Source: a virus
Taxonomy: Duplodnaviria > Caudoviricetes
Virus record (IMG/VR): IMGVR_UViG_3300033146_001059
Location: 2,190-66,189 of that record
DNA: 64,000 nucleotides
Strand: one strand, 5' to 3'
The position numbers and the translations under genes are program-made. Under the pieces are notes generated by a model. That model saw only the letters and a list, made by a program, of their open reading frames with translations, ran no database searches and was not told the origin of the DNA. Position 1 is the stretch's first letter; each line of letters starts with the position of its first letter. Positions 47,850 to 64,000 of this stretch are shown in pieces.

Positions 47850-48341
47850 ATGTATTTTAAATTGAGTATGAAAAAACTACTGGTGTTAATTATATTATTA
47901 CACACTTTAGGGAGTTGCACTAAAGTAGAGTATATAAAAGATGAACGCCCTTTAAAAGAATATGAATATGAAGAAAAAGATGTTTCAACTACATATTCTC
48001 CATATGCCTATCTAAAAGTATTAAAGGTTGAAAAAAATTATAAATATATAAAAATAAGTGTAAAATGTTCTAACCTTCTTTCTTCTTATATACATATAAG
48101 AGTATCGCAACTATACACAGAAACAGGTGAAGTTTTTTATATGTATAATAATATAATGTATTATCCTAATGTTAGACCTGGTATGACTTTTAATATTCGT
48201 CAAAGTAATAATGCATTAGATGAATTTATACTCACACTAGATTATGTATACAATTCTTTTGAAGAAATTAATATAAACATATCTCAAAAAAGGGGGATTT
48301 ATTCATATAGAACCAGTTCTGCATTAATAAATAGTATTTAA
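47850..48341 (+). CDS. Putative lipoprotein
   Basis: MKKLLVLIILLHTLGSC lipobox. Confidence 0.6.
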   Translation: MYFKLSMKKLLVLIILLHTLGSCTKVEYIKDERPLKEYEYEEKDVSTTYSPYAYLKVLKVEKNYKYIKISVKCSNLLSSYIHIRVSQLYTETGEVFYMYNNIMYYPNVRPGMTFNIRQSNNALDEFILTLDYVYNSFEEININISQKRGIYSYRTSSALINSI

Positions 48342-48354
48342 AATTTAATATATC

Positions 48355-48645
48355 GTTTGAGTTCAATTTGAACTGTATCAAACACGCGGGTTCGATTCCC
48401 GCTACCTCCACTAATAATTTAAAATCATGGGGGTAACCAGGTATCGACTTGGTACGAAGTAGAAGTAGACGAGATGTATTGAGGTGAATCCGACAATAAA
48501 CGGAAAGAAAACAGCAAAAGTAATCAACTTTGTAGATGACACTAGAGTGTTAGCTGCGGCTTAATCAGCCTATGATTGCGCGTTAGGTGAGAGCCCTAAC
48601 GTTCTTGATTTTAAAGGCTCACCCTATGTGGTGGGTCTTTTTTTA
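48355..48645 (+). ncRNA. ssrA: tmRNA, circularly permuted (two-piece) gene
   Basis: T-arm GCGGGTTCGATTCCCGC + TACCTCCA (48386-48410) precedes the 5' end GGGGGTA..ATCGAC (48429); G3.U70; helix 2 TTGGTAC/GTATCAA; tag ORF 48502-48564 ending LAAA*; outer ends approximate. Confidence 0.85.
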
Positions 48646-48676
48646 TTTTAAATTAAACCATATAAATTATATAGTT

Positions 48677-50852: not shown

Positions 50853-50993
50853 ATGGCTAACGAATATAAATTGGTAACTGTAAATAAAAAAGTTATTGAT
50901 TTAGGGTATTTTAGTGATATAAAAGATGCAATCAAGGTTAGAAAAGATGCAGAAATATCTAACAATAGAAAACCATTAAATAAAAATAATTAA
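50853..50993 (+). pseudogene. AP2-domain fragment (HNH-AP2 endonuclease remnant)
   Basis: VNKKVIDLGYFSDIKDAIKVRKDAE in a 46-aa ORF. Confidence 0.55.
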
Positions 50994-51000
50994 AACATAA

Positions 51001-51071
51001 TCCCTCTTAGAAATCTTACACTGTCGAGGAATTCGACGCCTGATTTTGGTTCTGGAAGAATTTTAGAGGGG
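51001..51071 (+). ncRNA. UAGAA-stem element 1 (no tRNA mimic)
   Basis: TCCCTCT-TAGAAA...AATTTT-AGAGGGG; internal GTCGA/TCGAC hairpin. Confidence 0.6.
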
Positions 51072-51089
51072 TTTATAATATTTTAACTT

Positions 51090-54927: not shown

Positions 54928-55581
54928 ATGGCTATAAAAATTAAGGATAAAAATAAGCTCTTTTTCGTTTCAGATTGTCATTTTGGTCACTTTAATATTA
55001 TTAGACTTGCTCAACGCATGGATAATACTATTATTGAGCCTGATGTTGCAGGAGCTAGGGGAACAGCAAGTACTCCAATAGAATTTAAAAGTGCGGATGC
55101 TATGAATGATGAGATTATTCGTAGATGGAATCAGATTGTACCTGCAGATGCAGTAGTAATAGATCTTGGTGACTTTATGTTTAAGTTACCTATGAAAAAA
55201 GCTGCACCTATTCTTAAGAGATTGAACTTTAAGGAGATTCATTTTATTAAAGGTAATCACGGTAGAAATTATTATAAAGAATTCGAAAATGTTGGACGCA
55301 AAGTTGTAGTGCATGATAGAGATATTGTACACATAATTGTTGACGATGACGAATTCGATGACGGAAAATGTGAATTCCAAGTTTGCCATTACCCTTTATA
55401 TGAACATGATCGTAAATTTAAAGGGGCATTTCATTTATTTGGGCATACCCACAAAGATCTTTATTACAGTAAAGTAGCTTTACATGTAGGTATTGATACA
55501 TGGAATTTAAGGCCTGCATCATATCAAGAAATACTTACTCGTATGTATGTAAGAGCTGCGGATGATAAGTTGTGGAAGTAA
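54928..55581 (+). CDS. Calcineurin-like metallophosphoesterase
   Basis: SDCHFGH, LGDF, KGNH, CHYP, FGHTH. Confidence 0.9.
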   Translation: MAIKIKDKNKLFFVSDCHFGHFNIIRLAQRMDNTIIEPDVAGARGTASTPIEFKSADAMNDEIIRRWNQIVPADAVVIDLGDFMFKLPMKKAAPILKRLNFKEIHFIKGNHGRNYYKEFENVGRKVVVHDRDIVHIIVDDDEFDDGKCEFQVCHYPLYEHDRKFKGAFHLFGHTHKDLYYSKVALHVGIDTWNLRPASYQEILTRMYVRAADDKLWK

Positions 55582-57519: not shown

Positions 57520-58440
57520 ATGAAGATAAAGACGATAAAGTTCAAGATCAAAAAGAAGATTGATGCTTGGCTTGAAAGTATTCTTGATGAACAATTAAGA
57601 GAAGATCTTAAAGATAACACTATAGTAACAGGTGGAGCAATAGCTTCAATGTTACGGGGTGAGGATGTAAATGATTATGATTTATACTTTACAGATAAGA
57701 AGATTGTAATTAGACTTATTAATTACTATAAAGACGCGTCTTGGCCTATAACTATACTTAACGGTGCATTTAAACAGGTATATATTGAAGATGCTAAAGT
57801 ACGTAGTGGAGGAGACTTTGAGCCAGCCGGTAACGCTTATAATATGGCTGTAGAGAATCTTGACGATGACAGGGTAACTATGTTTTTTAATTCTAAAGTT
57901 GGATATATTGTTAAAGCGCCATTAACTGGTGAAAGGGCACCTTATTCCCCTTTATTTTTTAGTGCGAATGCTATTACTCTTGCGAATGATATTCAAATCA
58001 TTACTAGATTCCATGGTAGTCCACTAAAGATACACGAGAATTTTGATTTTGTACATGCCACTAATTACTATAAAGTTAGAACTGGTGAGTTGTATACAAA
58101 TAAGAAAGCTCTTATATCATTAATGACAGGCGAGTTAAAGTACATGGGTAAAAGTAAATATCCATTAACTGCAATGATACGTACTCGAAAGTTTCAAGCT
58201 AGAGGGTATACTATGGGTGCAGGTGAGATGGTGAAGATTATGTTTCAACTTAATGGTTATGATTTAAAAGATCCTGTTGTATTATCTGAGCAGCTTATAG
58301 GTGTTGATATTGCTTATTTTAATGAGCTTATTGAGGCGCTGATAAAAGCACAAAAAGATCCAGAGTTTAGTATTACTAATACATGGATCATGCAGCAGAT
58401 AGATGAGATCTTTGATAAAGTTGAGCACGATGAAGATTAA
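57520..58440 (+). CDS. Pol-beta-family nucleotidyltransferase (poly(A) polymerase/CCA head-like)
   Basis: VTGGAIAS...DVNDYDLYF, IQII, ENFDFVH motifs. Confidence 0.7.
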   Translation: MKIKTIKFKIKKKIDAWLESILDEQLREDLKDNTIVTGGAIASMLRGEDVNDYDLYFTDKKIVIRLINYYKDASWPITILNGAFKQVYIEDAKVRSGGDFEPAGNAYNMAVENLDDDRVTMFFNSKVGYIVKAPLTGERAPYSPLFFSANAITLANDIQIITRFHGSPLKIHENFDFVHATNYYKVRTGELYTNKKALISLMTGELKYMGKSKYPLTAMIRTRKFQARGYTMGAGEMVKIMFQLNGYDLKDPVVLSEQLIGVDIAYFNELIEALIKAQKDPEFSITNTWIMQQIDEIFDKVEHDED

Positions 58441-58839: not shown

Positions 58840-59217
58840 ATGGAAGCAAATCAAATACTAGGACTTATAGTTTTACTAGGACTTATATTTTCATTAATGT
58901 GGGGATTTAAAACTGCACTATCTACCACAAAGTATAAGAAAGCAGTTGTCAAACAGGTGCAAAATAAAGATGTGTGTGATGATGTGTGTGATGTTCAAAG
59001 TTACTTCATAGAATATGAATGTTATTTCTTAGGCTTTATACCTGTTACAGTTAAATTTTATAAAGAAGAGTGTGACTGGGGTGATTGCTATGAAGTTACC
59101 ATTACAGCTAAATCTGTTAAAAATATAATTAAGAAGTTTAATGAGCACGTTAAAAGTGTTCGTAGACCTATGAAATCTAAAACAATTCAAGACGTAAAAG
59201 ATACATGCGATGAGTAA
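58840..59217 (+). CDS. Hypothetical protein with N-terminal TM
   Basis: ORF track. Confidence 0.55.
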   Translation: MEANQILGLIVLLGLIFSLMWGFKTALSTTKYKKAVVKQVQNKDVCDDVCDVQSYFIEYECYFLGFIPVTVKFYKEECDWGDCYEVTITAKSVKNIIKKFNEHVKSVRRPMKSKTIQDVKDTCDE

Positions 59218-59841: not shown

Positions 59842-60362
59842 TGGAAGAAGTAACATTTAAAAGAGAAGGATTTTGGTATTGGTTACATAATATGACCTTT
59901 ATGCTAGAGCCAGAAGATACTTGCACATATAGAAATAGAATAGGATTTTCAATCATATTGAATATGTTGTTTTTACCTGCGTTTCTTACACGACTAGCTT
60001 TTATAGGTTTATTTAATAAAAAACTTTGGTACGATGATTTTAGAATGTTTGGTTTTGGGCCTACGTTTATCTATATGATATTTTATGGGTTAATACTTGT
60101 GATAGCATCTGCACTAGCTGAGCAAGCTGGTGAAGCTCTGACATTTATTTATTATTTAATGTCTGCTGGGTATTTCATAGGAACATTTTCTGTTTTAGGT
60201 TTACTAGCTTATGTTGCTAGTAAAATCCACGATTGGAAAGAAGCTAGAGAATTTGATAGAAAACATGCTGCAGATTATGTTGAGCCAGGTCCAGGTACAT
60301 TTAAGAAATTATATATTGCGTGGAAAAATAAATACTGTAGCAAGATAAAATGGGAAAATTAA
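59841..60362 (+). CDS. Multi-TM phage membrane protein
   Basis: DTCTY N-terminal and KNKYCSKI C-terminal motifs, about 3 TM. Confidence 0.6.
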   Translation: MEEVTFKREGFWYWLHNMTFMLEPEDTCTYRNRIGFSIILNMLFLPAFLTRLAFIGLFNKKLWYDDFRMFGFGPTFIYMIFYGLILVIASALAEQAGEALTFIYYLMSAGYFIGTFSVLGLLAYVASKIHDWKEAREFDRKHAADYVEPGPGTFKKLYIAWKNKYCSKIKWEN

Positions 60363-60871
60363 AAATAGACTGTAGAACAGGTGTGATTTCTCCTAGTAGT
60401 GATTACACTAATAAATTCATGAACGGAGAAAAAGTTTTATTTAGTACTTATTCTAGTGGCAGCTTTAATTCTGATATGAAAAAGATGAAAGCCGTTATAT
60501 TTGGCAATTTTATAATGGAATTAGCTGAATATATGAAGAGTACTAGAAAAATCACTACAACATTACATGCTTATAATCATGAAGATGGGTCATTTATGAT
60601 GGTCATGGGCAACAGTATAAGTATAGGGTGTAATCCTATGTTGAAATCTTTTGATATAAAATTTAAATCTATAAGTATTGGTAGAACTGATTATGTTAAT
60701 GTTCAGGCACATATCTTAGATCAGAAGTTAAATATAGATATCTTAGAGGCATTTCATTATGTATCTAGAACATGGTCTTTTCCTGAAAATATGATTGTGC
60801 CTGATAATTATAAAGAAAAATTTAAACGTTTTAATAAAAAGAGAAATGACGAAAGAAATCAAATTACCTAA
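60350..60871 (+). CDS. Hypothetical protein
   Basis: ORF track. Confidence 0.5.
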   Translation: MGKLKIDCRTGVISPSSDYTNKFMNGEKVLFSTYSSGSFNSDMKKMKAVIFGNFIMELAEYMKSTRKITTTLHAYNHEDGSFMMVMGNSISIGCNPMLKSFDIKFKSISIGRTDYVNVQAHILDQKLNIDILEAFHYVSRTWSFPENMIVPDNYKEKFKRFNKKRNDERNQIT

Positions 60872-61262: not shown

Positions 61263-61667
61263 ATGGTAATGAATAGAGATGAAATAATGAAGGAAGCGCT
61301 GAAGAGTGCAGATCCTATAAAGAAAGGGCTATATAAAATGCTCGCAAGTGAGATGGATCGTGGATTTGATGATCCTAAAGTTACATTCCTAAGTGTTGTG
61401 AAGAAAATGATTAAGAGTACCAAACTAGTACATCAAGATGATGTTACTCGTTATGAACTTAAACTTCTTCATAACCTTATGCCTAAACCAATTGACCTTA
61501 AGAAAGAATTTAAATGGTATATGGGTAACGCTTTAGCTGATAAATCTATTGGAGGAGTTATGAAATACTTCAAAGAAGAGTTTGATGGTAGATATGAAGC
61601 TAAAGATTTGTCTATTATGGCAAGAACTGAATTTAGAAAAGATTTACCTAAAACTAAGGGCGTATGA
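61263..61667 (+). CDS. GatB/YqeY domain protein
   Basis: MKEALKS.D..K...L, E..LL..LMPK, IGGVMKY.KE.F.GRY. Confidence 0.7.
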   Translation: MVMNRDEIMKEALKSADPIKKGLYKMLASEMDRGFDDPKVTFLSVVKKMIKSTKLVHQDDVTRYELKLLHNLMPKPIDLKKEFKWYMGNALADKSIGGVMKYFKEEFDGRYEAKDLSIMARTEFRKDLPKTKGV

Positions 61668-61942: not shown

Positions 61943-62107
61943 ATTTAAATTCTATATTAATGAGGCAATCTTTTGAGCAGATAAAAATTATTTTTAATGA
62001 CAATCTGGAGAGGCAAGAATACATAACAGATCATGTGGATGCGTTGGCACAGTTTTTACTTGCTGATTCTAAGGAGGTTGTAAAAAAGAAATAATTTTCT
62101 TATTATG

Positions 62108-62138
62108 TTTGTTACTTTGTAAATTTTTAGTATCTTTA
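62108..62138 (+). promoter_or_regulatory. Bacteroidota-type promoter candidate upstream of the RNA cluster
   Basis: TTTG-19nt-TATCTTTA, one mismatch to the -33 TTTG / -7 TAnnTTTG consensus. Confidence 0.45.
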
Positions 62139-62223
62139 CACCAGTAAAAGAGAAGATATTTGACATCACCGAGCTAAACACTCGTAAAAAGTTTAATTAA
62201 TAAAGAAAAATTAGTAAAATATA

Positions 62224-62308
62224 GTACCTCTTAGAAGCGTAAAAACTTCATCTTTAACCAGGTTGTGTGAAAATACGACTAGGATAATTTAAAAGTAATT
62301 AGAGGTAC
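62224..62308 (+). ncRNA. UAGAA-stem element 2 (no tRNA mimic)
   Basis: GTACCTCT-TAGAAG...AATT-AGAGGTAC; internal GGTTGTGT-GAAA-ATACGACT hairpin. Confidence 0.65.
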
Positions 62309-62335
62309 AATATGGCCGTTTAATTGCGGCCACCA

Positions 62336-62410
62336 GGCGCTGTCGTCTAATTGGCCTAGGACACCACCCTTTCACGGTGGCAGATGCGAGTTCGAACCTC
62401 GTCGGCGTCA
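62336..62410 (+). tRNA. tRNA-Glu(TTC)
   Basis: Full cloverleaf; CCACC-CTTTCAC-GGTGG; TTCGAAC; no encoded CCA. Confidence 0.9.
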
Positions 62411-62525
62411 CTTTTCTTATTAAAACTTGTTGGTTCGAATTTTATATCGTATATTGCGGTATGAGGGAAGACATACAAAGAAATAAGTGAGATTACTGGA
62501 GCAGCTAAAAGTAAATTTAGTCTCA

Positions 62526-62612
62526 AATCTAGTCTATTTATGTAGAAATCATCATTGGTTATTTGACCATAATAGGTTAGATAAAGAAAGTATAAAAAAC
62601 ATTAAAAATAAA
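62526..62612 (+). pseudogene. HNH endonuclease C-terminal remnant
   Basis: NLVYLCRNHHWLFDH with no intact start. Confidence 0.55.
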
Positions 62613-62731
62613 AGCATCACTTAGAAACATTTACATTCGTAAATTTAGCTCAGTTGGTAGAGCATTTGAATCATAATCAAAAGGCCAAGGGTTCAACTCC
62701 CTTATCTTACAACAGAAAATTAGTGATGCTT
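62612..62731 (+). ncRNA. UAGAA-stem element 3 enclosing a degenerate tRNA(CAT) at 62639-62711
   Basis: AAGCATCACT-TAGAAA...AATT-AGTGATGCTT; inner D, anticodon and T arms intact, acceptor stem has 2 mismatches. Confidence 0.7.
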
Positions 62732-62739
62732 AAACTTAT

Positions 62740-62813
62740 TGTGAGATAGAGCAGATGGCCAGCTCGCGAGGCTCATAACCTCGAGGTCGGGGGTTCGAAT
62801 CCCCCTCTCGCTA
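62740..62813 (+). tRNA. tRNA-Met(CAT), initiator type
   Basis: 1:72 mismatch, A11:U24, CGAGG-CTCATAA-CCTCG. Confidence 0.85.
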
Positions 62814-62889
62814 CTATCAGGTCCCTTTGAAGCTAGGGTTTATGGAACAGGCTAAATAAAAGCCTATAATACCTGTTCGCCTGTAACCT

Positions 62890-62962
62890 TGTGATATAGC
62901 TCAGTTGGTAGAGCATCTCCTTCATGCGGAAAAAGTCATCGGTTCGAGTCCGATTATCGCTA
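62890..62962 (+). tRNA. tRNA-Met(CAT), elongator-like (Ile2 not excluded)
   Basis: Cloverleaf, loop TTCATGC; one anticodon-stem mismatch and a U1:U72 mismatch. Confidence 0.7.
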
Positions 62963-62970
62963 CTAAAACA

Positions 62971-63175
62971 AGACCAGATGGCTGGAGAAATACTATTACG
63001 AAAGGTATTTGAGATAAAGATTGATTTTTGCGGATTGATCGCAGGCTCATTACGCTTACTAATTACTACAGTATGGTAAAGCACATGGAGCCGCAACTCC
63101 ACGGTCATAGATAAACGAGAATTAACGTTGTTCAAATTTATTTATGTTGGGTGGTTCGAATCCCCCTCAGGTCAC
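62971..63175 (+). ncRNA. Expanded tRNA-like RNA (Cys-like fragments)
   Basis: GACCAGA/TCAGGTC ends, TGGAG-CCGCAA-CTCCA arm, TTCGAATCC T-arm, separated by long inserts. Confidence 0.4.
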
Positions 63176-63186
63176 AATTATTAAAT

Positions 63187-63296
63187 GGGAACTTTTATAA
63201 GTTAGAGATATTATGTGTCTCTTAGAAAAATTTAAAAACTATGGTTAAGACTATTCCGTGAGGAAAGGTTGTCAGGTTCAAATCCTGAAGTTCCCG
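63187..63296 (+). ncRNA. UAGAA-stem element 4: tRNA-like RNA with the module inserted as a hairpin
   Basis: GGGAACT/AGTTCCC acceptor; TT-AGAGATAT-tat-GTGTCTCT-TAGAAAA insert; TCAGG-TTCAAAT-CCTGA T-arm. Confidence 0.65.
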
Positions 63297-63300
63297 CAAA

Positions 63301-63419
63301 AAATCCCCCTTAGAAAACTTTCAATCAGATTTTGTAAATCCGAGATTGTAGGTTCGAATCCTATGTTATCGTTAGATAATTAGCTAAACTGGATATAGCG
63401 CGTAATTTTAGGGGGATTT
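63301..63419 (+). ncRNA. UAGAA-stem element 5 enclosing a circularly permuted tRNA-Thr(TGT) mimic
   Basis: AAATCCCCCT-TAGAAAA...AATTTT-AGGGGGATTT; order anticodon arm, T-arm, closed acceptor, D-arm. Confidence 0.75.
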
Positions 63420-63428
63420 AAATTATTG

Positions 63429-63634
63429 AATAGTAAATGGCGGAATAGGTAGACGCTAACAGAGGTATAGGATCACTCCAATTATAAGGGCCCCTCTATA
63501 ATTATAATAAATTATGATCTATGTAAAGTGACTATACTAGTGACAAAAGCCCTTAGTGGATGAGCCTACGGGCAATAATGACAACATGACGAGTAATTCA
63601 AGCTCGAATCTAGTCAAATCTTTACTTTACTATT
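63429..63634 (+). ncRNA. Expanded tRNA-Leu-like RNA
   Basis: AATAGTAAA/TTTACTATT ends, Leu-type D-arm GCGGAATAGGTAGACGC, T-stem GTAAAG/CTTTAC with a large structured insert. Confidence 0.5.
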
Positions 63635-63644
63635 TAAATTATTT

Positions 63645-63717
63645 GGGGCTGAAGCTCTACTGGCTGAGCACTTCGCTTGCACCGAAGAGGTTGCGGGATC
63701 GTACCCCGTCAGCTCCA
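63645..63717 (+). tRNA. tRNA-Ala(TGC)
   Basis: GGGGCTG/CAGCTCC with G3.U70; CTTCG-CTTGCAC-CGAAG; atypical T-loop ATCGTAC. Confidence 0.85.
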
Positions 63718-63721
63718 CAAA

Positions 63722-63846
63722 TACCTCTCTTAGAAAAATTCAAAAACATGTAAAGACAGATAAAAGCCCTTGTGGCACATAAGTCCGTTAGGTTCGAATC
63801 CTTCACCCTTGGTGTAAATTGGTTTTTGAGGACAAATAGAGAGGTA
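63722..63846 (+). ncRNA. UAGAA-stem element 6 enclosing a permuted tRNA mimic
   Basis: TACCTCTCT-TAGAAAA...AAT-AGAGAGGTA; TCAAAAAC/GTTTTTGA; T-arm AGG-TTCGAAT-CCT then closed acceptor CACC-ctt-GGTG. Confidence 0.7.
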
Positions 63847-63851
63847 AATTT

Positions 63852-63973
63852 GGCGAGATTAAAATGTTGGAACACTAGTGAGGTTTTCATTTCGTCTCAC
63901 TTAGAAAACTTTAAATTTATACAAAACAAAATGTGAATTTGAATAACGGAGGTTCGAATCCTTCCTCTCGCCA
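63852..63973 (+). ncRNA. UAGAA-stem element 7: tRNA-like RNA with the module inserted as a hairpin
   Basis: GGCGAGA/TCTCGCC-A acceptor; CT-AGTGAGG...TCTCACT-TAGAAAA insert; GGAGG-TTCGAAT-CCTTC T-arm. Confidence 0.7.
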
Positions 63974-64000
63974 CTAAAGCCTCCCTCGATTTCATGACTG

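What the first reader, a model, noticed from the sequence alone, without database searches (positions are those of the whole stretch)
63187..63973. Two tRNA-like RNAs carry the UAGAA module itself permuted, as an internal hairpin
Seen: at 63187-63296 and 63852-63973 a perfect 7-bp open acceptor stem and a canonical T-arm remain, while the D/anticodon region is replaced by or interrupted with T-AG-stem-loop-stem-CT-TAGAAAA (strand order reversed relative to the other copies). Inference: retention in both connectivities argues that the module acts as an RNA structure rather than a DNA site, and these RNAs could be matured by RNase P/Z and CCA addition.
Basis: partly seen in the sequence, partly recalled or inferred. 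Interest (0 to 1): 0.75.

Follow-up and report, generated by a model that had tools for sequence, protein, structure and literature searches.

The report
tRNA-shaped phage RNAs with shared handle
Two small genes in the tRNA cluster of a crAss-like phage keep the top half of a tRNA but carry, in place of the codon-reading half, a conserved bulged hairpin that six other small RNAs of the same phage also bear, so they are most likely stable carrier RNAs cut out by the cell's tRNA enzymes and not working tRNAs.

Summary
EA (63187-63296) and EB (63852-63973) each have a perfect 7-bp open acceptor stem and a standard T arm. In EB one extra C separates the two. Each carries an internal hairpin closed by AG/CU and followed by UAGAA.

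The same helix recurs eight times, all on the + strand. Pairs 1, 2 and 4 are invariant, pair 3 covaries, and a single bulged U follows. Seven sites have a helix of 8 bp or more, against 0.76 expected by chance.

In five copies the helix encloses the cargo instead. One of these, M4 (63301-63419), is a circularly permuted tRNA look-alike with the layout of bacterial YrlA Y RNAs. A roughly 90%-identical relative shows compensatory changes in it.

Neither EA nor EB scores as a tRNA, even after any single internal deletion.

Best reading: these are non-decoding, tRNA-processed scaffold RNAs that display a probable protein-binding handle. That makes them the tRNA-order permutation of a Y-RNA-like design. 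The partner, the processing and the function are all untested. No RNA data and no distant relatives could be reached.

The earlier scan had noted anticodon-less tRNA mimics and partner-less YrlA-like RNAs in other phages.

The parts
63187..63296 (+). EA, a tRNA-shaped RNA gene. Acceptor 5' 63187-63193; linker 63194-63202; U63203; handle helix 63204-63211 / 63215-63222 with loop 63212-63214; bulged U63223 then AGAA 63224-63227; A/U-rich linker 63228-63248; hairpin with GUGA loop 63249-63270; T arm 63272-63288; acceptor 3' 63289-63295; discriminator G63296.
   Evidence: Sequence; acceptor 7/7 and T stem 5/5; helix; fold -30.1 kcal/mol, z -3.68, 0 of 200 shuffles as good; 0 of 2278 single-deletion variants called a tRNA. 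In the relative, all 8 listed changes fall outside the acceptor, handle and T arm.
63852..63973 (+). EB, a tRNA-shaped RNA gene. Acceptor 5' 63852-63858; D-like stretch with GG 63859-63875; U63876; handle helix 63877-63884 / 63894-63901 with loop 63885-63893; bulged U63902 then AGAA 63903-63906; linker 63907-63925; weak anticodon-like arm 63926-63942 (loop AUGUGAA); 5-nt variable loop 63943-63947; T arm 63948-63964; extra C63965; acceptor 3' 63966-63972; discriminator A63973.
   Evidence: fold -29.8 kcal/mol, z -3.03; tRNA model 15.9 bits, E 3.2 over 63910-63964; 0 of 3321 deletion variants called a tRNA. A contig of run X2 covers 63851-63964 with 15 differences and 3 gaps.
63301..63419 (+). 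M4, the enclosing form. A 10-bp handle helix (63301-63310 / 63410-63419) surrounds a circularly permuted tRNA-like body: hairpin with anticodon-type loop UUUGUAA (63326-63342), 5-nt variable loop, T arm (63348-63364), acceptor closed by a 4-nt loop (63365-63380), U8-A9, D arm (63383-63399), G26.
   Evidence: ARAGORN calls a tRNA in 292 of 800 rotated joins, 106 of them Thr(tgt). On a coarser grid, 62 of 200 joins against 0 of 150 control loci. Rfam YrlA 32.4 bits, E 5e-5, below the gathering score of 69. Compensatory changes in the relative.
63722..63846 (+). M5, enclosing form. A 9-bp handle helix surrounds an inner helix, a degenerate T arm (3 of 5 stem pairs) and a short closed hairpin.
63433..63632 (+). 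EC, a long weak tRNA-like unit with a variant hairpin-form handle (AGGGC 63487-63491 / GCCCT 63549-63553, followed by TAGTGG).
   Evidence: The fold is not better than shuffles (z -1.07), so membership is doubtful.
62612..62731 (+). M2, enclosing form. A 10-bp handle helix surrounds an ordinary-order tRNA with anticodon CAT (62639-62711).
62224..62308 (+). M1, enclosing form. An 8-bp handle helix followed by UAGAAG; the cargo is a simple hairpin with no tRNA parts.
50999..51073 (+). M0, enclosing form, 11 kb upstream of the array in an intergenic gap. A 9-bp handle helix; the cargo is two small hairpins.

Best explanation
EA and EB are non-decoding, tRNA-shaped small RNAs. They belong to a phage-specific family of at least seven or eight RNAs that share one 'handle'. 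The handle is a helix with invariant pairs A-U, G-C, N-N, G-C, a single bulged U, and then AGAA (5'-CNCU-U-AGAA on one strand, 5'-U-AGNG on the other).

Proposed course of events:
1. The units are transcribed with the tRNA array on the + strand.
2. The acceptor/T-arm 'top half' of EA and EB is recognised by host RNase P at the 5' end (63187, 63852) and by RNase Z or exonucleases at the 3' end (63296, 63973).
3. CCA is then added.
4. This yields stable RNAs of about 110-125 nt in which the handle hairpin projects where the anticodon arm would be.
5. The handle is a binding site for a protein that is still unknown.

The design parallels bacterial Y RNAs of the YrlA type, which join a protein-binding stem to a tRNA mimic. 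M4 and M5 are that design in YrlA order, open at the handle with the acceptor closed. EA and EB are the same parts in tRNA order, open at the acceptor with the handle closed.

Shown here: the anatomy, the recurrence, the pairing kept across copies, the strand bias, and conservation in one relative. Inferred: transcription, every processing step, protein binding and any function.
For: - Acceptor 7/7 and standard T arms.
- No tRNA call for EA (0 of 2278) or EB (0 of 3321) after any single internal deletion. The Rfam tRNA model gives nothing for EA and 15.9 bits for EB.
- The handle occurs in 8 copies. Three pairs are invariant, pair 3 covaries, and the total is 62 Watson-Crick plus 5 G-U pairs. 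Seven long-helix sites lie on the + strand and none on the - strand, against a chance mean of 0.756.
- After the bulged U, an A-U pair can form in 7 of 8 copies and a G-U or G-C pair in 6 of 8 (read from the sequences; folds of M0 and M4).
- The + strand folds better than the - strand for EA, EB and M0.
- M4 has the YrlA layout: Rfam YrlA 32.4 bits, E 5e-5. Rotated joins give tRNA calls in 62 of 200 cases, against 0 of 150 control loci.
- A relative in run X1 differs from M4 at many places but keeps it folded. There are three two-sided changes in the 63326-63342 stem. In the T stem a G-U pair becomes A-U. The tertiary 15:48 pair goes from A:U to G:C. CUUAGAA is kept while the next three bases change.
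- In EA the 8 listed changes of that relative all avoid the 56 structural positions out of 111 (p about 0.004 if placed at random).
- Established knowledge, recalled: RNase P, RNase Z and CCA-adding enzyme accept acceptor/T-arm minihelices.
- M. smegmatis YrlA is cut by RNase P and receives CCA (PMC4201824, passages read).
Against: - No transcript or end data were available: no RNA run was listed.
- No partner protein was identified. No TROVE/Ro60 domain is present in the 74 ORFs of the window, though the contig is incomplete.
- The YrlA Ro60 motif GNCGAAN0-1G is absent from the handle (consensus seen).
- EB has an extra base at the junction of T stem and acceptor.
- EA lacks a GG D-loop partner for its T loop.
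- Comparative support for EA rests on one close relative, and one of its 33 substitutions was not displayed.
- No distant relatives carrying the module were found in IMG/VR or in the JGI metagenomes.
- M0 and M1 carry the handle with no tRNA part, and M2 wraps a normal tRNA. The handle may therefore serve processing rather than binding.
Confidence: 0.45

Rival explanations
1. Pure punctuation. The tRNA-like ends are only cutting marks for RNase P and RNase Z that split a long early transcript, as with plant-mitochondrial t-elements. The handle would be an additional endonuclease site, for instance for an RNase E/G-type enzyme in the A/U-rich tail. The released RNAs would have no function of their own.
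For: The units sit head to tail in an ORF-free array. M2 wraps a normal tRNA in the same helix, and M0 and M1 have no tRNA part. The tails after UAGAA are A-rich and then U-rich. The relative gains or loses whole units exactly at unit borders: a 361-nt skip from 62812 to 63174 and 157 extra letters at 63849/63850. Earlier scan notes proposed this for other crAss-like phages.
Against: There are no protein genes between the units that would need release. The conserved part is the helix core plus UUAGAA, not the A/U-rich tail, which changes in the relative. The interior of EA and the body of M4 are conserved or compensated, which is more than a cutting mark needs.
Confidence: 0.2
2. DNA-level element. 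EA and EB are decayed tRNA genes invaded by a small palindromic mobile element or a REP-like hairpin that an HUH or GIY-YIG enzyme reads as single-stranded DNA. The shared UUAG on both arms would be its target or cleavage site.
For: Both arms read (U)UAG in the same 5'-3' sense. Hairpins of the form TTTCTT-AGNGN-loop-NCNCT-TAGAAA occur as tandem repeats in unrelated bacterial genomes. The window encodes HNH and T5orf172 nucleases. An earlier scan note describes hairpin elements invading tRNA genes in Bacteroidota.
Against: Five copies have arms 59-108 nt apart enclosing folded cargo, which is not an insertion topology. The arms differ in sequence between copies rather than being copies of one element. 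In EA the acceptor, T arm and hairpin are unchanged in the relative while the linkers change. M4 shows compensatory change in a tRNA-like fold.
Confidence: 0.1
3. Working tRNAs with an extra arm. M4 would be a two-piece or permuted tRNA-Thr(UGU), and EB a tRNA with an arm inserted between positions 26 and 27. Both would be charged and used in translation, with the handle as an add-on.
For: M4 has U8, A14, G18-G19, a 7-nt loop with U33 and A37, a 5-nt variable loop and a 15:48 pair that covaries. In the relative, the 3' acceptor strand is followed by an encoded discriminator plus CCA and a 7-nt spacer before the 5' strand, the layout of permuted tmRNA genes. The same phage has a permuted tmRNA. 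EB has a loop with U33, GUG and A37.
Against: EA has no anticodon loop: its only hairpin there ends in a GUGA tetraloop. EB scores 15.9 bits, and its alternative 12-bp fold removes the anticodon-like arm. About 24 extra bases plus a 10-bp helix between positions 26 and 27 have no precedent known to me in a decoding tRNA. In this window M4's acceptor is sealed by 4 nt with no CCA.
Confidence: 0.1
4. CRISPR mimicry. The handle imitates the end of a type I-F CRISPR repeat, and the RNAs act as RNA anti-CRISPRs or decoys for Cas proteins.
For: CUUAGAAA, present in 6 of 8 copies, is the 8-nt 5' handle of type I-F crRNAs. PMC6868425 prints a 28-nt repeat ending in it and describes the 8-nt handle (passages). 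Many genome arrays of period 60 end in ...CGCTTAGAAA. Phage repeat mimics are known (PMC10651486, passages).
Against: RacrIF1 needs the Cas6f stem-loop, not the handle. The stems here differ: the base before the handle is never G, and there is no GUUCAC 5' part except GUU in EA. The enclosing copies are not repeat-like. No Rfam CRISPR-DR family matched at E up to 10. Known hosts of crAss-like phages are Bacteroidota (recalled), where I-F is uncommon (recalled).
Confidence: 0.06

Closest known systems
YrlA-type bacterial and phage Y RNAs (Rfam RF02553; Chen et al. 2014, PMC4201824; abstract, section 6 and passages read)
   Same: A terminal protein-binding stem is joined to a tRNA mimic with a T arm, a closed acceptor-like stem and a D arm. 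M4 matches the core of the model (32.4 bits) and shows the same 15:48 covariation that the paper reports. M. smegmatis YrlA is cut by RNase P and receives CCA.
   Different: EA and EB are in tRNA order, not permuted. The handle lacks GNCGAAN0-1G. The score is below the gathering threshold of 69. No Ro60 gene lies in the 66-kb contig. Eight units share the handle, some with no tRNA part.
Phage T4 stable RNAs species 1 and 2 (rnaC, rnaD)
   Same: They are annotated small stable RNAs of 139 and 119 nt directly behind tRNA-Arg in the T4 tRNA cluster. rnaC ends in a standard T arm followed by a short 3' strand. Size and position are like those of EA and EB. Their function is still unknown (recalled).
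   Different: There is no sequence likeness and no UUAGAA handle. In the fold, rnaC's terminal helix is only partial.
t-elements and tRNA punctuation (plant mitochondria, PMC1920247, not read, cited from an earlier scan note; animal mitochondria, recalled)
   Same: tRNA-like folds without decoding capacity serve as RNase P and RNase Z sites.
   Different: Those elements flank mRNAs. Here the units flank each other and carry a conserved extra motif.
Permuted tRNA genes of Cyanidioschyzon merolae and two-piece (permuted) tmRNA
   Same: The 3' half is encoded before the 5' half. The phage's own tmRNA is permuted (RF04321, 66.3 bits). The relative's version of M4 encodes CCA before a short spacer.
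   Different: No bulge-helix-bulge motif can be drawn at the M4 ends (by inspection). Bacteria lack the splicing endonuclease (recalled). EA and EB are not permuted.
Type I-F CRISPR repeats and RNA anti-CRISPRs (PMC6868425, PMC10651486; passages only)
   Same: A hairpin is followed by CUUAGAAA.
   Different: The stem sequence and the closing pair differ, and five copies have distant arms. See the membership test.

Membership tests
Canonical tRNA (RF00005) | 7-bp acceptor stem with a 5-bp T stem and 7-nt UUCRANY loop stacked directly on it | tested here: met
   Fully met in EA. In EB, acceptor 7/7 and T arm 5/5, but one extra C (63965) lies between them.
Canonical tRNA (RF00005) | D arm with GG, and an anticodon arm with a 5-bp stem and 7-nt loop | tested here: not met
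   EA has neither. EB has a GG stretch and a 4-bp arm with loop AUGUGAA that competes with a 12-bp alternative fold.
Canonical tRNA (RF00005) | Score at or above the gathering threshold (29 bits), or an ARAGORN call | tested here: not met
   EA: no match at E up to 10. EB: 15.9 bits. 0 of 2278 and 0 of 3321 single-deletion variants were called a tRNA.
YrlA Y RNA (RF02553) | Permuted tRNA-like domain in the order T arm, closed acceptor-like stem, D arm, inside a terminal stem | tested here: not met
   EA and EB are in tRNA order with an open acceptor. M4 meets it (model positions 23-88, 32.4 bits) but stays below the gathering score of 69.
YrlA Y RNA (RF02553) | GNCGAAN0-1G motif near the 5' end (presumed Ro60 site) | tested here: not met
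   The handle reads CNCUUAGAA. The Rfam consensus 5' part reads cggCgaAUGC. The motif definition comes from PMC4201824.
YrlA Y RNA (RF02553) | Encoded next to a Ro60/Rsr gene | tested here: inconclusive
   No TROVE hit among 72-74 window ORFs. The contig is a fragment with no terminal overlap.
Type I-F CRISPR repeat / Racr | 8-nt 3' end CUUAGAAA, which becomes the crRNA 5' handle | tested here: met
   6 of 8 copies. M1 has CUUAGAAG and EC has CUUAGUGG. The repeat is printed in PMC6868425.
Type I-F CRISPR repeat / Racr | Cas6f stem-loop: 5-bp stem, 5-nt loop, G at the last stem position, GUUCAC 5' part | tested here: not met
   The base before the handle is U, U, A, C, U, U, A, C across the copies. 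Loops are 3 and 9 nt in EA and EB, and the arms are 59-108 nt apart in five copies. Compare the real repeats.
Type III toxin-antitoxin RNA (ToxI-like) with ToxN/CptN nuclease | Tandem identical repeats next to a ToxN-fold endoribonuclease gene | tested here: not met
   The units are not identical tandem repeats. The weak CptIN hit of ORF 58840-59214 (19.1 bits, cut-off 90) did not hold up: the protein has a membrane helix and a Cys-rich domain, and a profile search found no ToxN or CptN in the PDB.
Phage tRNA-cluster stable RNAs (T4 rnaC/rnaD type) | Non-decoding RNA in a phage tRNA cluster with tRNA-like termini, released by tRNA-processing enzymes | not testable with these tools
   Position and termini fit. 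Processing needs RNA data.

The most novel reading that the evidence does not exclude
The phage builds one modular RNA platform in both circular permutations. A tRNA body that the cell's tRNA enzymes process, stabilise and perhaps even charge is joined to a sequence-specific bulged-U handle that recruits a dedicated protein. M4-type units would be true two-piece tRNAs, since CCA is encoded in a relative. EA and EB would be natural 'tRNA scaffolds'. The handle, whose last eight bases equal the type I-F crRNA handle, would mark phage-made tRNA-like RNAs for a counter-defence or translation-takeover factor.
Probability: 0.12. Interest if true: 0.85.

Novelty: new variant of a known kind. Interest (0 to 1): 0.55.

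Why it matters
Non-decoding tRNA look-alikes in phage tRNA clusters have been known since T4 species 1 and 2 RNAs, yet their function has never been explained. Y RNAs with tRNA-like domains are likewise understood only in outline.

This array offers a compact natural experiment. One conserved handle is attached to a normal tRNA, to a permuted tRNA mimic, to open tRNA-shaped shells and to plain hairpins, all within 2 kb. If the handle's partner were found, it would give a direct route to what such RNAs do in crAss-like phages, a very abundant and poorly cultured group.

It would also show that the laboratory 'tRNA scaffold' trick for stabilising RNAs has a natural counterpart.

Tried and rejected
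Searches for relatives
1. Pattern CTTAGAAAA...GGTTCRAATCC in IMG/VR: 20 loci, all unrelated tRNAs, tmRNAs or other mimics.
2. A 17-mer tail pattern: 117 or more loci, of which 40 passed a screen and all looked coding or random.
3. The EA T-arm/acceptor 20-mer in JGI metagenomes: 5 loci, all chance matches in coding DNA.
4. Neighbour proteins in IMG/VR: none for ORFs 61263-61664 and 60350-60868. Three loci for ORF 57520-58437 held no tRNAs.
5. Portal relatives at 60-70% identity lie on short contigs. Of the 5 records searched, one tRNA was over the cut-off, and no array was seen in the two loci I inspected.
6. The same protein in GTDB contigs: none.
7. The INPHARED phages showed only ordinary tRNA matches. 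The terminase is at most 35% identical to any listed phage.

RNA evidence: no RNA holder was listed, so nothing can be said on expression.

ORF 58840-59214 as a CptN-like nuclease: rejected.

Phosphoesterase-like ORF 54928-55578: no PDB or Pfam match.

Known ribozymes, CRISPR-DR and other Rfam families over 62000-64000 at E up to 10: nothing beyond tRNA, YrlA and noise.

Motifs considered by inspection only and left open or dropped: bulge-helix-bulge, kink-turn, sarcin-ricin, tetraloop-receptor, hammerhead and retron-priming readings of the handle.

The early non-coding region of phi14:2 shows a tmRNA but no such handle.

ToxN (PF13958) in five genomes with CUUAGAAA tandem arrays: no match, but the control rang nowhere, so the test says nothing.

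Literature: searches for permuted tRNA with phage, YrlA with bacteriophage and crAss-like with tRNA-like found no description of this module. CTTAGAAA with CRISPR found only type I-F repeats among the 15 of 168 papers listed.
Full report
Context. The window is the last 64,000 bases of a 66,189-base linear contig with no terminal overlap. Pfam finds a crAss muzzle protein, a crAss major capsid protein and tail ring protein 2, so this is a crAss-like phage. It is a very divergent one: its terminase is at most 35% identical to any listed phage. The structural genes lie on the - strand. From about 38.5 kb onward a block of small + strand ORFs follows, then a permuted tmRNA (48320-48655; RF04321, 66.3 bits) and, from 62.1 kb to the contig end, an ORF-poor array. 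ARAGORN and Rfam agree on five tRNA genes there: Glu, three with anticodon CAT, and Ala. Five further standard T loops belong to no called tRNA.

The observation. EA (63187-63296) and EB (63852-63973) each have a perfect 7-bp acceptor stem whose 3' strand follows a 5-bp T stem with a UUCAAAU or UUCGAAU loop. EB has one extra C at that junction. By simple arithmetic, a perfect 7-mer partner within 130 nt is expected about once in 125 T arms. Both elements contain a hairpin that begins with AG, ends with CU, is preceded by U and is followed by UAGAA. Both fold better than shuffled versions (z -3.68 and -3.03) and better than their complements (z -1.91 and -0.88). Neither is a tRNA by the tests run. 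ARAGORN and Rfam do not call them. Removing any single internal segment rescues neither (0 of 2278 and 0 of 3321 variants). EA has no D arm, and its only hairpin before the T arm ends in a GUGA tetraloop. EB keeps a GG-containing D-like stretch and a weak arm with loop AUGUGAA (15.9 bits, E 3.2), which competes with a 12-bp alternative fold.

The module. Searching for a helix that starts with AG and pairs with the bases ending in CU before UAGAA gives seven sites of 8-10 bp, all on the + strand. Simulated sequences gave a mean of 0.756 and a maximum of 4 in 500, and this is the highest count among 262 control 7-mers. With a weaker eighth copy (EC), the helix shows invariant pairs 1, 2 and 4 (A-U, G-C, G-C). 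Pair 3 appears as A-U four times, U-A twice and G-C twice. The outer pairs vary freely, for a total of 62 Watson-Crick and 5 G-U pairs. After the helix comes one unpaired U. The next bases, A and G, can pair with the lead strand in 7 of 8 and 6 of 8 copies. The core is therefore a bulged-U helix, 5'-CNCU-U-AG / 5'-YU-AGNG, followed by AA (read; the folds of M0 and M4 draw it so).

In EA, EB and EC the helix is a hairpin inside a unit with an open acceptor. In M0, M1, M2, M4 and M5 the CU-UAGAA strand comes first and the AG strand 59-108 nt later, so the helix encloses the cargo. The cargo varies: simple hairpins in M0 and M1, an ordinary tRNA-CAT in M2, and tRNA-like bodies in M4 and M5.

M4 is the key to the design. 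Inside its 10-bp helix the order is as follows:
- a hairpin with a 7-nt loop UUUGUAA;
- a 5-nt variable loop;
- a T arm;
- an acceptor helix closed by four bases;
- U8-A9;
- a D arm with GG;
- G26.

Rotating the two halves in a script makes ARAGORN call a tRNA in 292 of 800 joins, 106 of them Thr(tgt). The same procedure on 150 random window loci gives no call at all, against 62 of 200 joins for M4 on the same grid. The Rfam YrlA model aligns the T arm, closed acceptor and D arm at 32.4 bits (E 5e-5 for this small search), below its gathering score of 69. This lead came from earlier notes of this scan. I checked it against Chen et al. 2014 (PMC4201824; abstract, section 6 and passages). YrlA RNAs have a 5' GNCGAAN0-1G motif, a V stem-loop, a T arm, an acceptor-like closed stem and a D arm, and lie next to Ro60. 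The M. smegmatis RNA is cut by RNase P and receives CCA. The layout matches M4, and more loosely M5. The Ro60 motif is absent, and no TROVE protein is encoded in the window.

A relative. No near relative is in IMG/VR, the JGI metagenomes searched or INPHARED. Logan contigs of run X1 hold a phage about 90% identical. One 750-base contig covers 62732-62812 and then 63174-63648. All 15 of its gap letters and 32 of its 33 substitutions are listed, so I could rebuild it in a script.

In EA, the 8 listed events all fall in linkers or after the discriminator. None falls in the 56 positions of the acceptor, handle and T arm (p about 0.004 if placed at random).

M4 is far more changed, yet it stays folded:
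- Three adjacent stem pairs of the 63326-63342 hairpin are changed on both sides, while the loop is untouched.
- A G-U pair in the T stem becomes A-U.
- The D-loop base at position 15 and the variable-loop base at position 48 change together, from A:U to G:C.
- The acceptor strands are largely replaced, yet 6 of 7 positions still pair.
- The 3' acceptor strand is now followed by an encoded discriminator, CCA and a 7-nt spacer before the 5' strand. This is the arrangement of permuted tmRNA genes.
- CUUAGAA is kept while the three bases after it change.

The relative also lacks 361 bases, running exactly from the end of one unit to the end of another. It carries 157 extra bases exactly between M5 and EB. 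Units therefore come and go as cassettes.

Interpretation. The parts of EA and EB that are present are the ones that RNase P, RNase Z, CCA-adding enzyme and T-loop modification enzymes need (recalled biochemistry). The decoding parts are missing. No CCA is encoded, as in the five real tRNA genes beside them. I therefore read EA and EB as non-decoding tRNA-shaped RNAs, released and stabilised by the tRNA machinery, with the handle hairpin standing in for the anticodon arm. M4 and M5 are the same idea in YrlA order.

A conserved bulged helix with invariant base pairs next to variable cargo is what a protein-binding site looks like. The bulged helix of Y RNAs that binds Ro60 is the nearest parallel (recalled). 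The partner is unknown. The ORF just upstream of the array (61263-61664) is YqeY-like, a domain related to the tRNA-binding tail of GatB (recalled). The support is PHROG 1460 at E 4.4e-9, Pfam YqeY at E 0.024, and 3 of the 8 homologue clusters other than the window's own carrying PF09424. This is a candidate only.

Alternatives. The rivals are pure punctuation marks, a DNA-level hairpin element in decayed tRNA genes, working tRNAs with an extra arm, and CRISPR mimicry. They are weighed in their own sections.

The CRISPR lead deserves a note. CUUAGAAA, present in 6 of 8 copies, is exactly the 8-nt 5' handle of type I-F crRNAs (PMC6868425, passages). Many of these are period-60 arrays with repeats ending in ...CGCTTAGAAA. 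But the stems here do not look like Cas6f hairpins, and the known RNA anti-CRISPR works through that hairpin, not the handle (PMC10651486, passages).

The same scan also turned up non-CRISPR tandem arrays of 54-57-nt units ending in a hairpin of the form TTTCTT-AGNGN-loop-NCNCT-TAGAAA. They occur in one Bacillaceae genome on many contigs and in a Lloydbacteria MAG; a Companilactobacillus array carries the same hairpin at a period of 122. In the Bacillaceae genome the array lies just upstream of a weak Bacillaceae-1 RNA match (27.8 bits, threshold 35). This suggests that the hairpin-plus-UUAGAAA motif may be wider than this phage, but I could not follow it up.

Comparison with what is known. 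Phage T4 carries two annotated stable RNAs, rnaC and rnaD, directly behind a tRNA in its tRNA cluster, and rnaC ends in a standard T arm. Earlier notes of this scan describe anticodon-less tRNA mimics and stem-closed non-coding RNA modules in other crAss-like phages, and partner-less YrlA-like RNAs in other phages. I did not re-test those notes. In Cellulophaga phage phi14:2, long early non-coding regions are highly transcribed and unexplained (bioRxiv 10.1101/2020.03.07.982082, passages). Its region holds a tmRNA but not this handle.

What appears new here is the shared bulged-U handle and its presence in both circular permutations within one array. My literature searches found no description of it. 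Supplements were not consulted.

Verdict. The reading as RNA structure is supported and the processing claim is plausible, but neither is proven. EA and EB are best filed as a new variant of the known kind 'non-decoding tRNA-like RNAs of phage tRNA clusters / Y-RNA-like tRNA mimics'.

Noticed in passing
window 48320-48655 (+): A permuted (two-piece) tmRNA gene (ARAGORN; RF04321, 66.3 bits). The 3' acceptor strand, a discriminator and an 18-nt spacer without CCA precede the 5' acceptor strand. It carries no UUAGAA handle.
   Followed up: partly
window 62972-63177 (+): A 205-nt unit with a 6/7 acceptor (GACCAGA / TCAGGTC), a T arm with one mismatch and a structured interior of about 130 nt (fold z -2.37). 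It has no handle. It is absent, together with the third tRNA-CAT, from the relative in run X1, which skips 361 nt.
   Followed up: partly
window 62639-62963 (+): Three tRNA genes with anticodon CAT. The second and third have a U1-U72 mismatch. The first has two acceptor mismatches, and its 5' acceptor strand can instead pair with its leader (ATTTAC/GTAAAT).
   Followed up: no
window 61263-61664 (+): The ORF directly upstream of the array is YqeY-like (related to the GatB C-terminal domain). Homologues at 65-85% identity sit on short metagenome contigs that I could not fetch.
   Followed up: partly
window 63849/63850 and 62812/63174: The relative in run X1 has 157 extra bases exactly between M5 and EB. 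It lacks 361 bases exactly from one unit's 3' end to another's. This is cassette-like gain and loss of whole units.
   Followed up: partly
L156, L235 and 12 or more further loci (one Bacillaceae genome); L160 (Lloydbacteria MAG); L155 (Companilactobacillus): Tandem arrays of 3-5 units (period 54-57 nt in the first two genomes, 122 in L155), each ending in a hairpin TTTCTT-AGNGN-loop-NCNCT-TAGAAA that matches the phage handle consensus. In the Bacillaceae genome the array lies just upstream of a weak Bacillaceae-1 RNA match. I know of no described family for them.
   Followed up: partly
L007 / L018 (IMG/VR contigs): Another phage tRNA mimic: a perfect 7-bp acceptor and T arm, with an interior of two GNRA-capped hairpins and no anticodon loop.
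   Followed up: no
window 50853-50993 (+): A 46-codon ORF whose product looks like a fragment of an AP2-type DNA-binding domain of homing endonucleases (by eye). It lies just upstream of handle copy M0.
   Followed up: no
window 63201-63228: The 28 bases of EA from GTT to CTTAGAAA have the length of a type I-F repeat, and the same first three and last eight bases, but a different stem. This is probably coincidence.
   Followed up: partly
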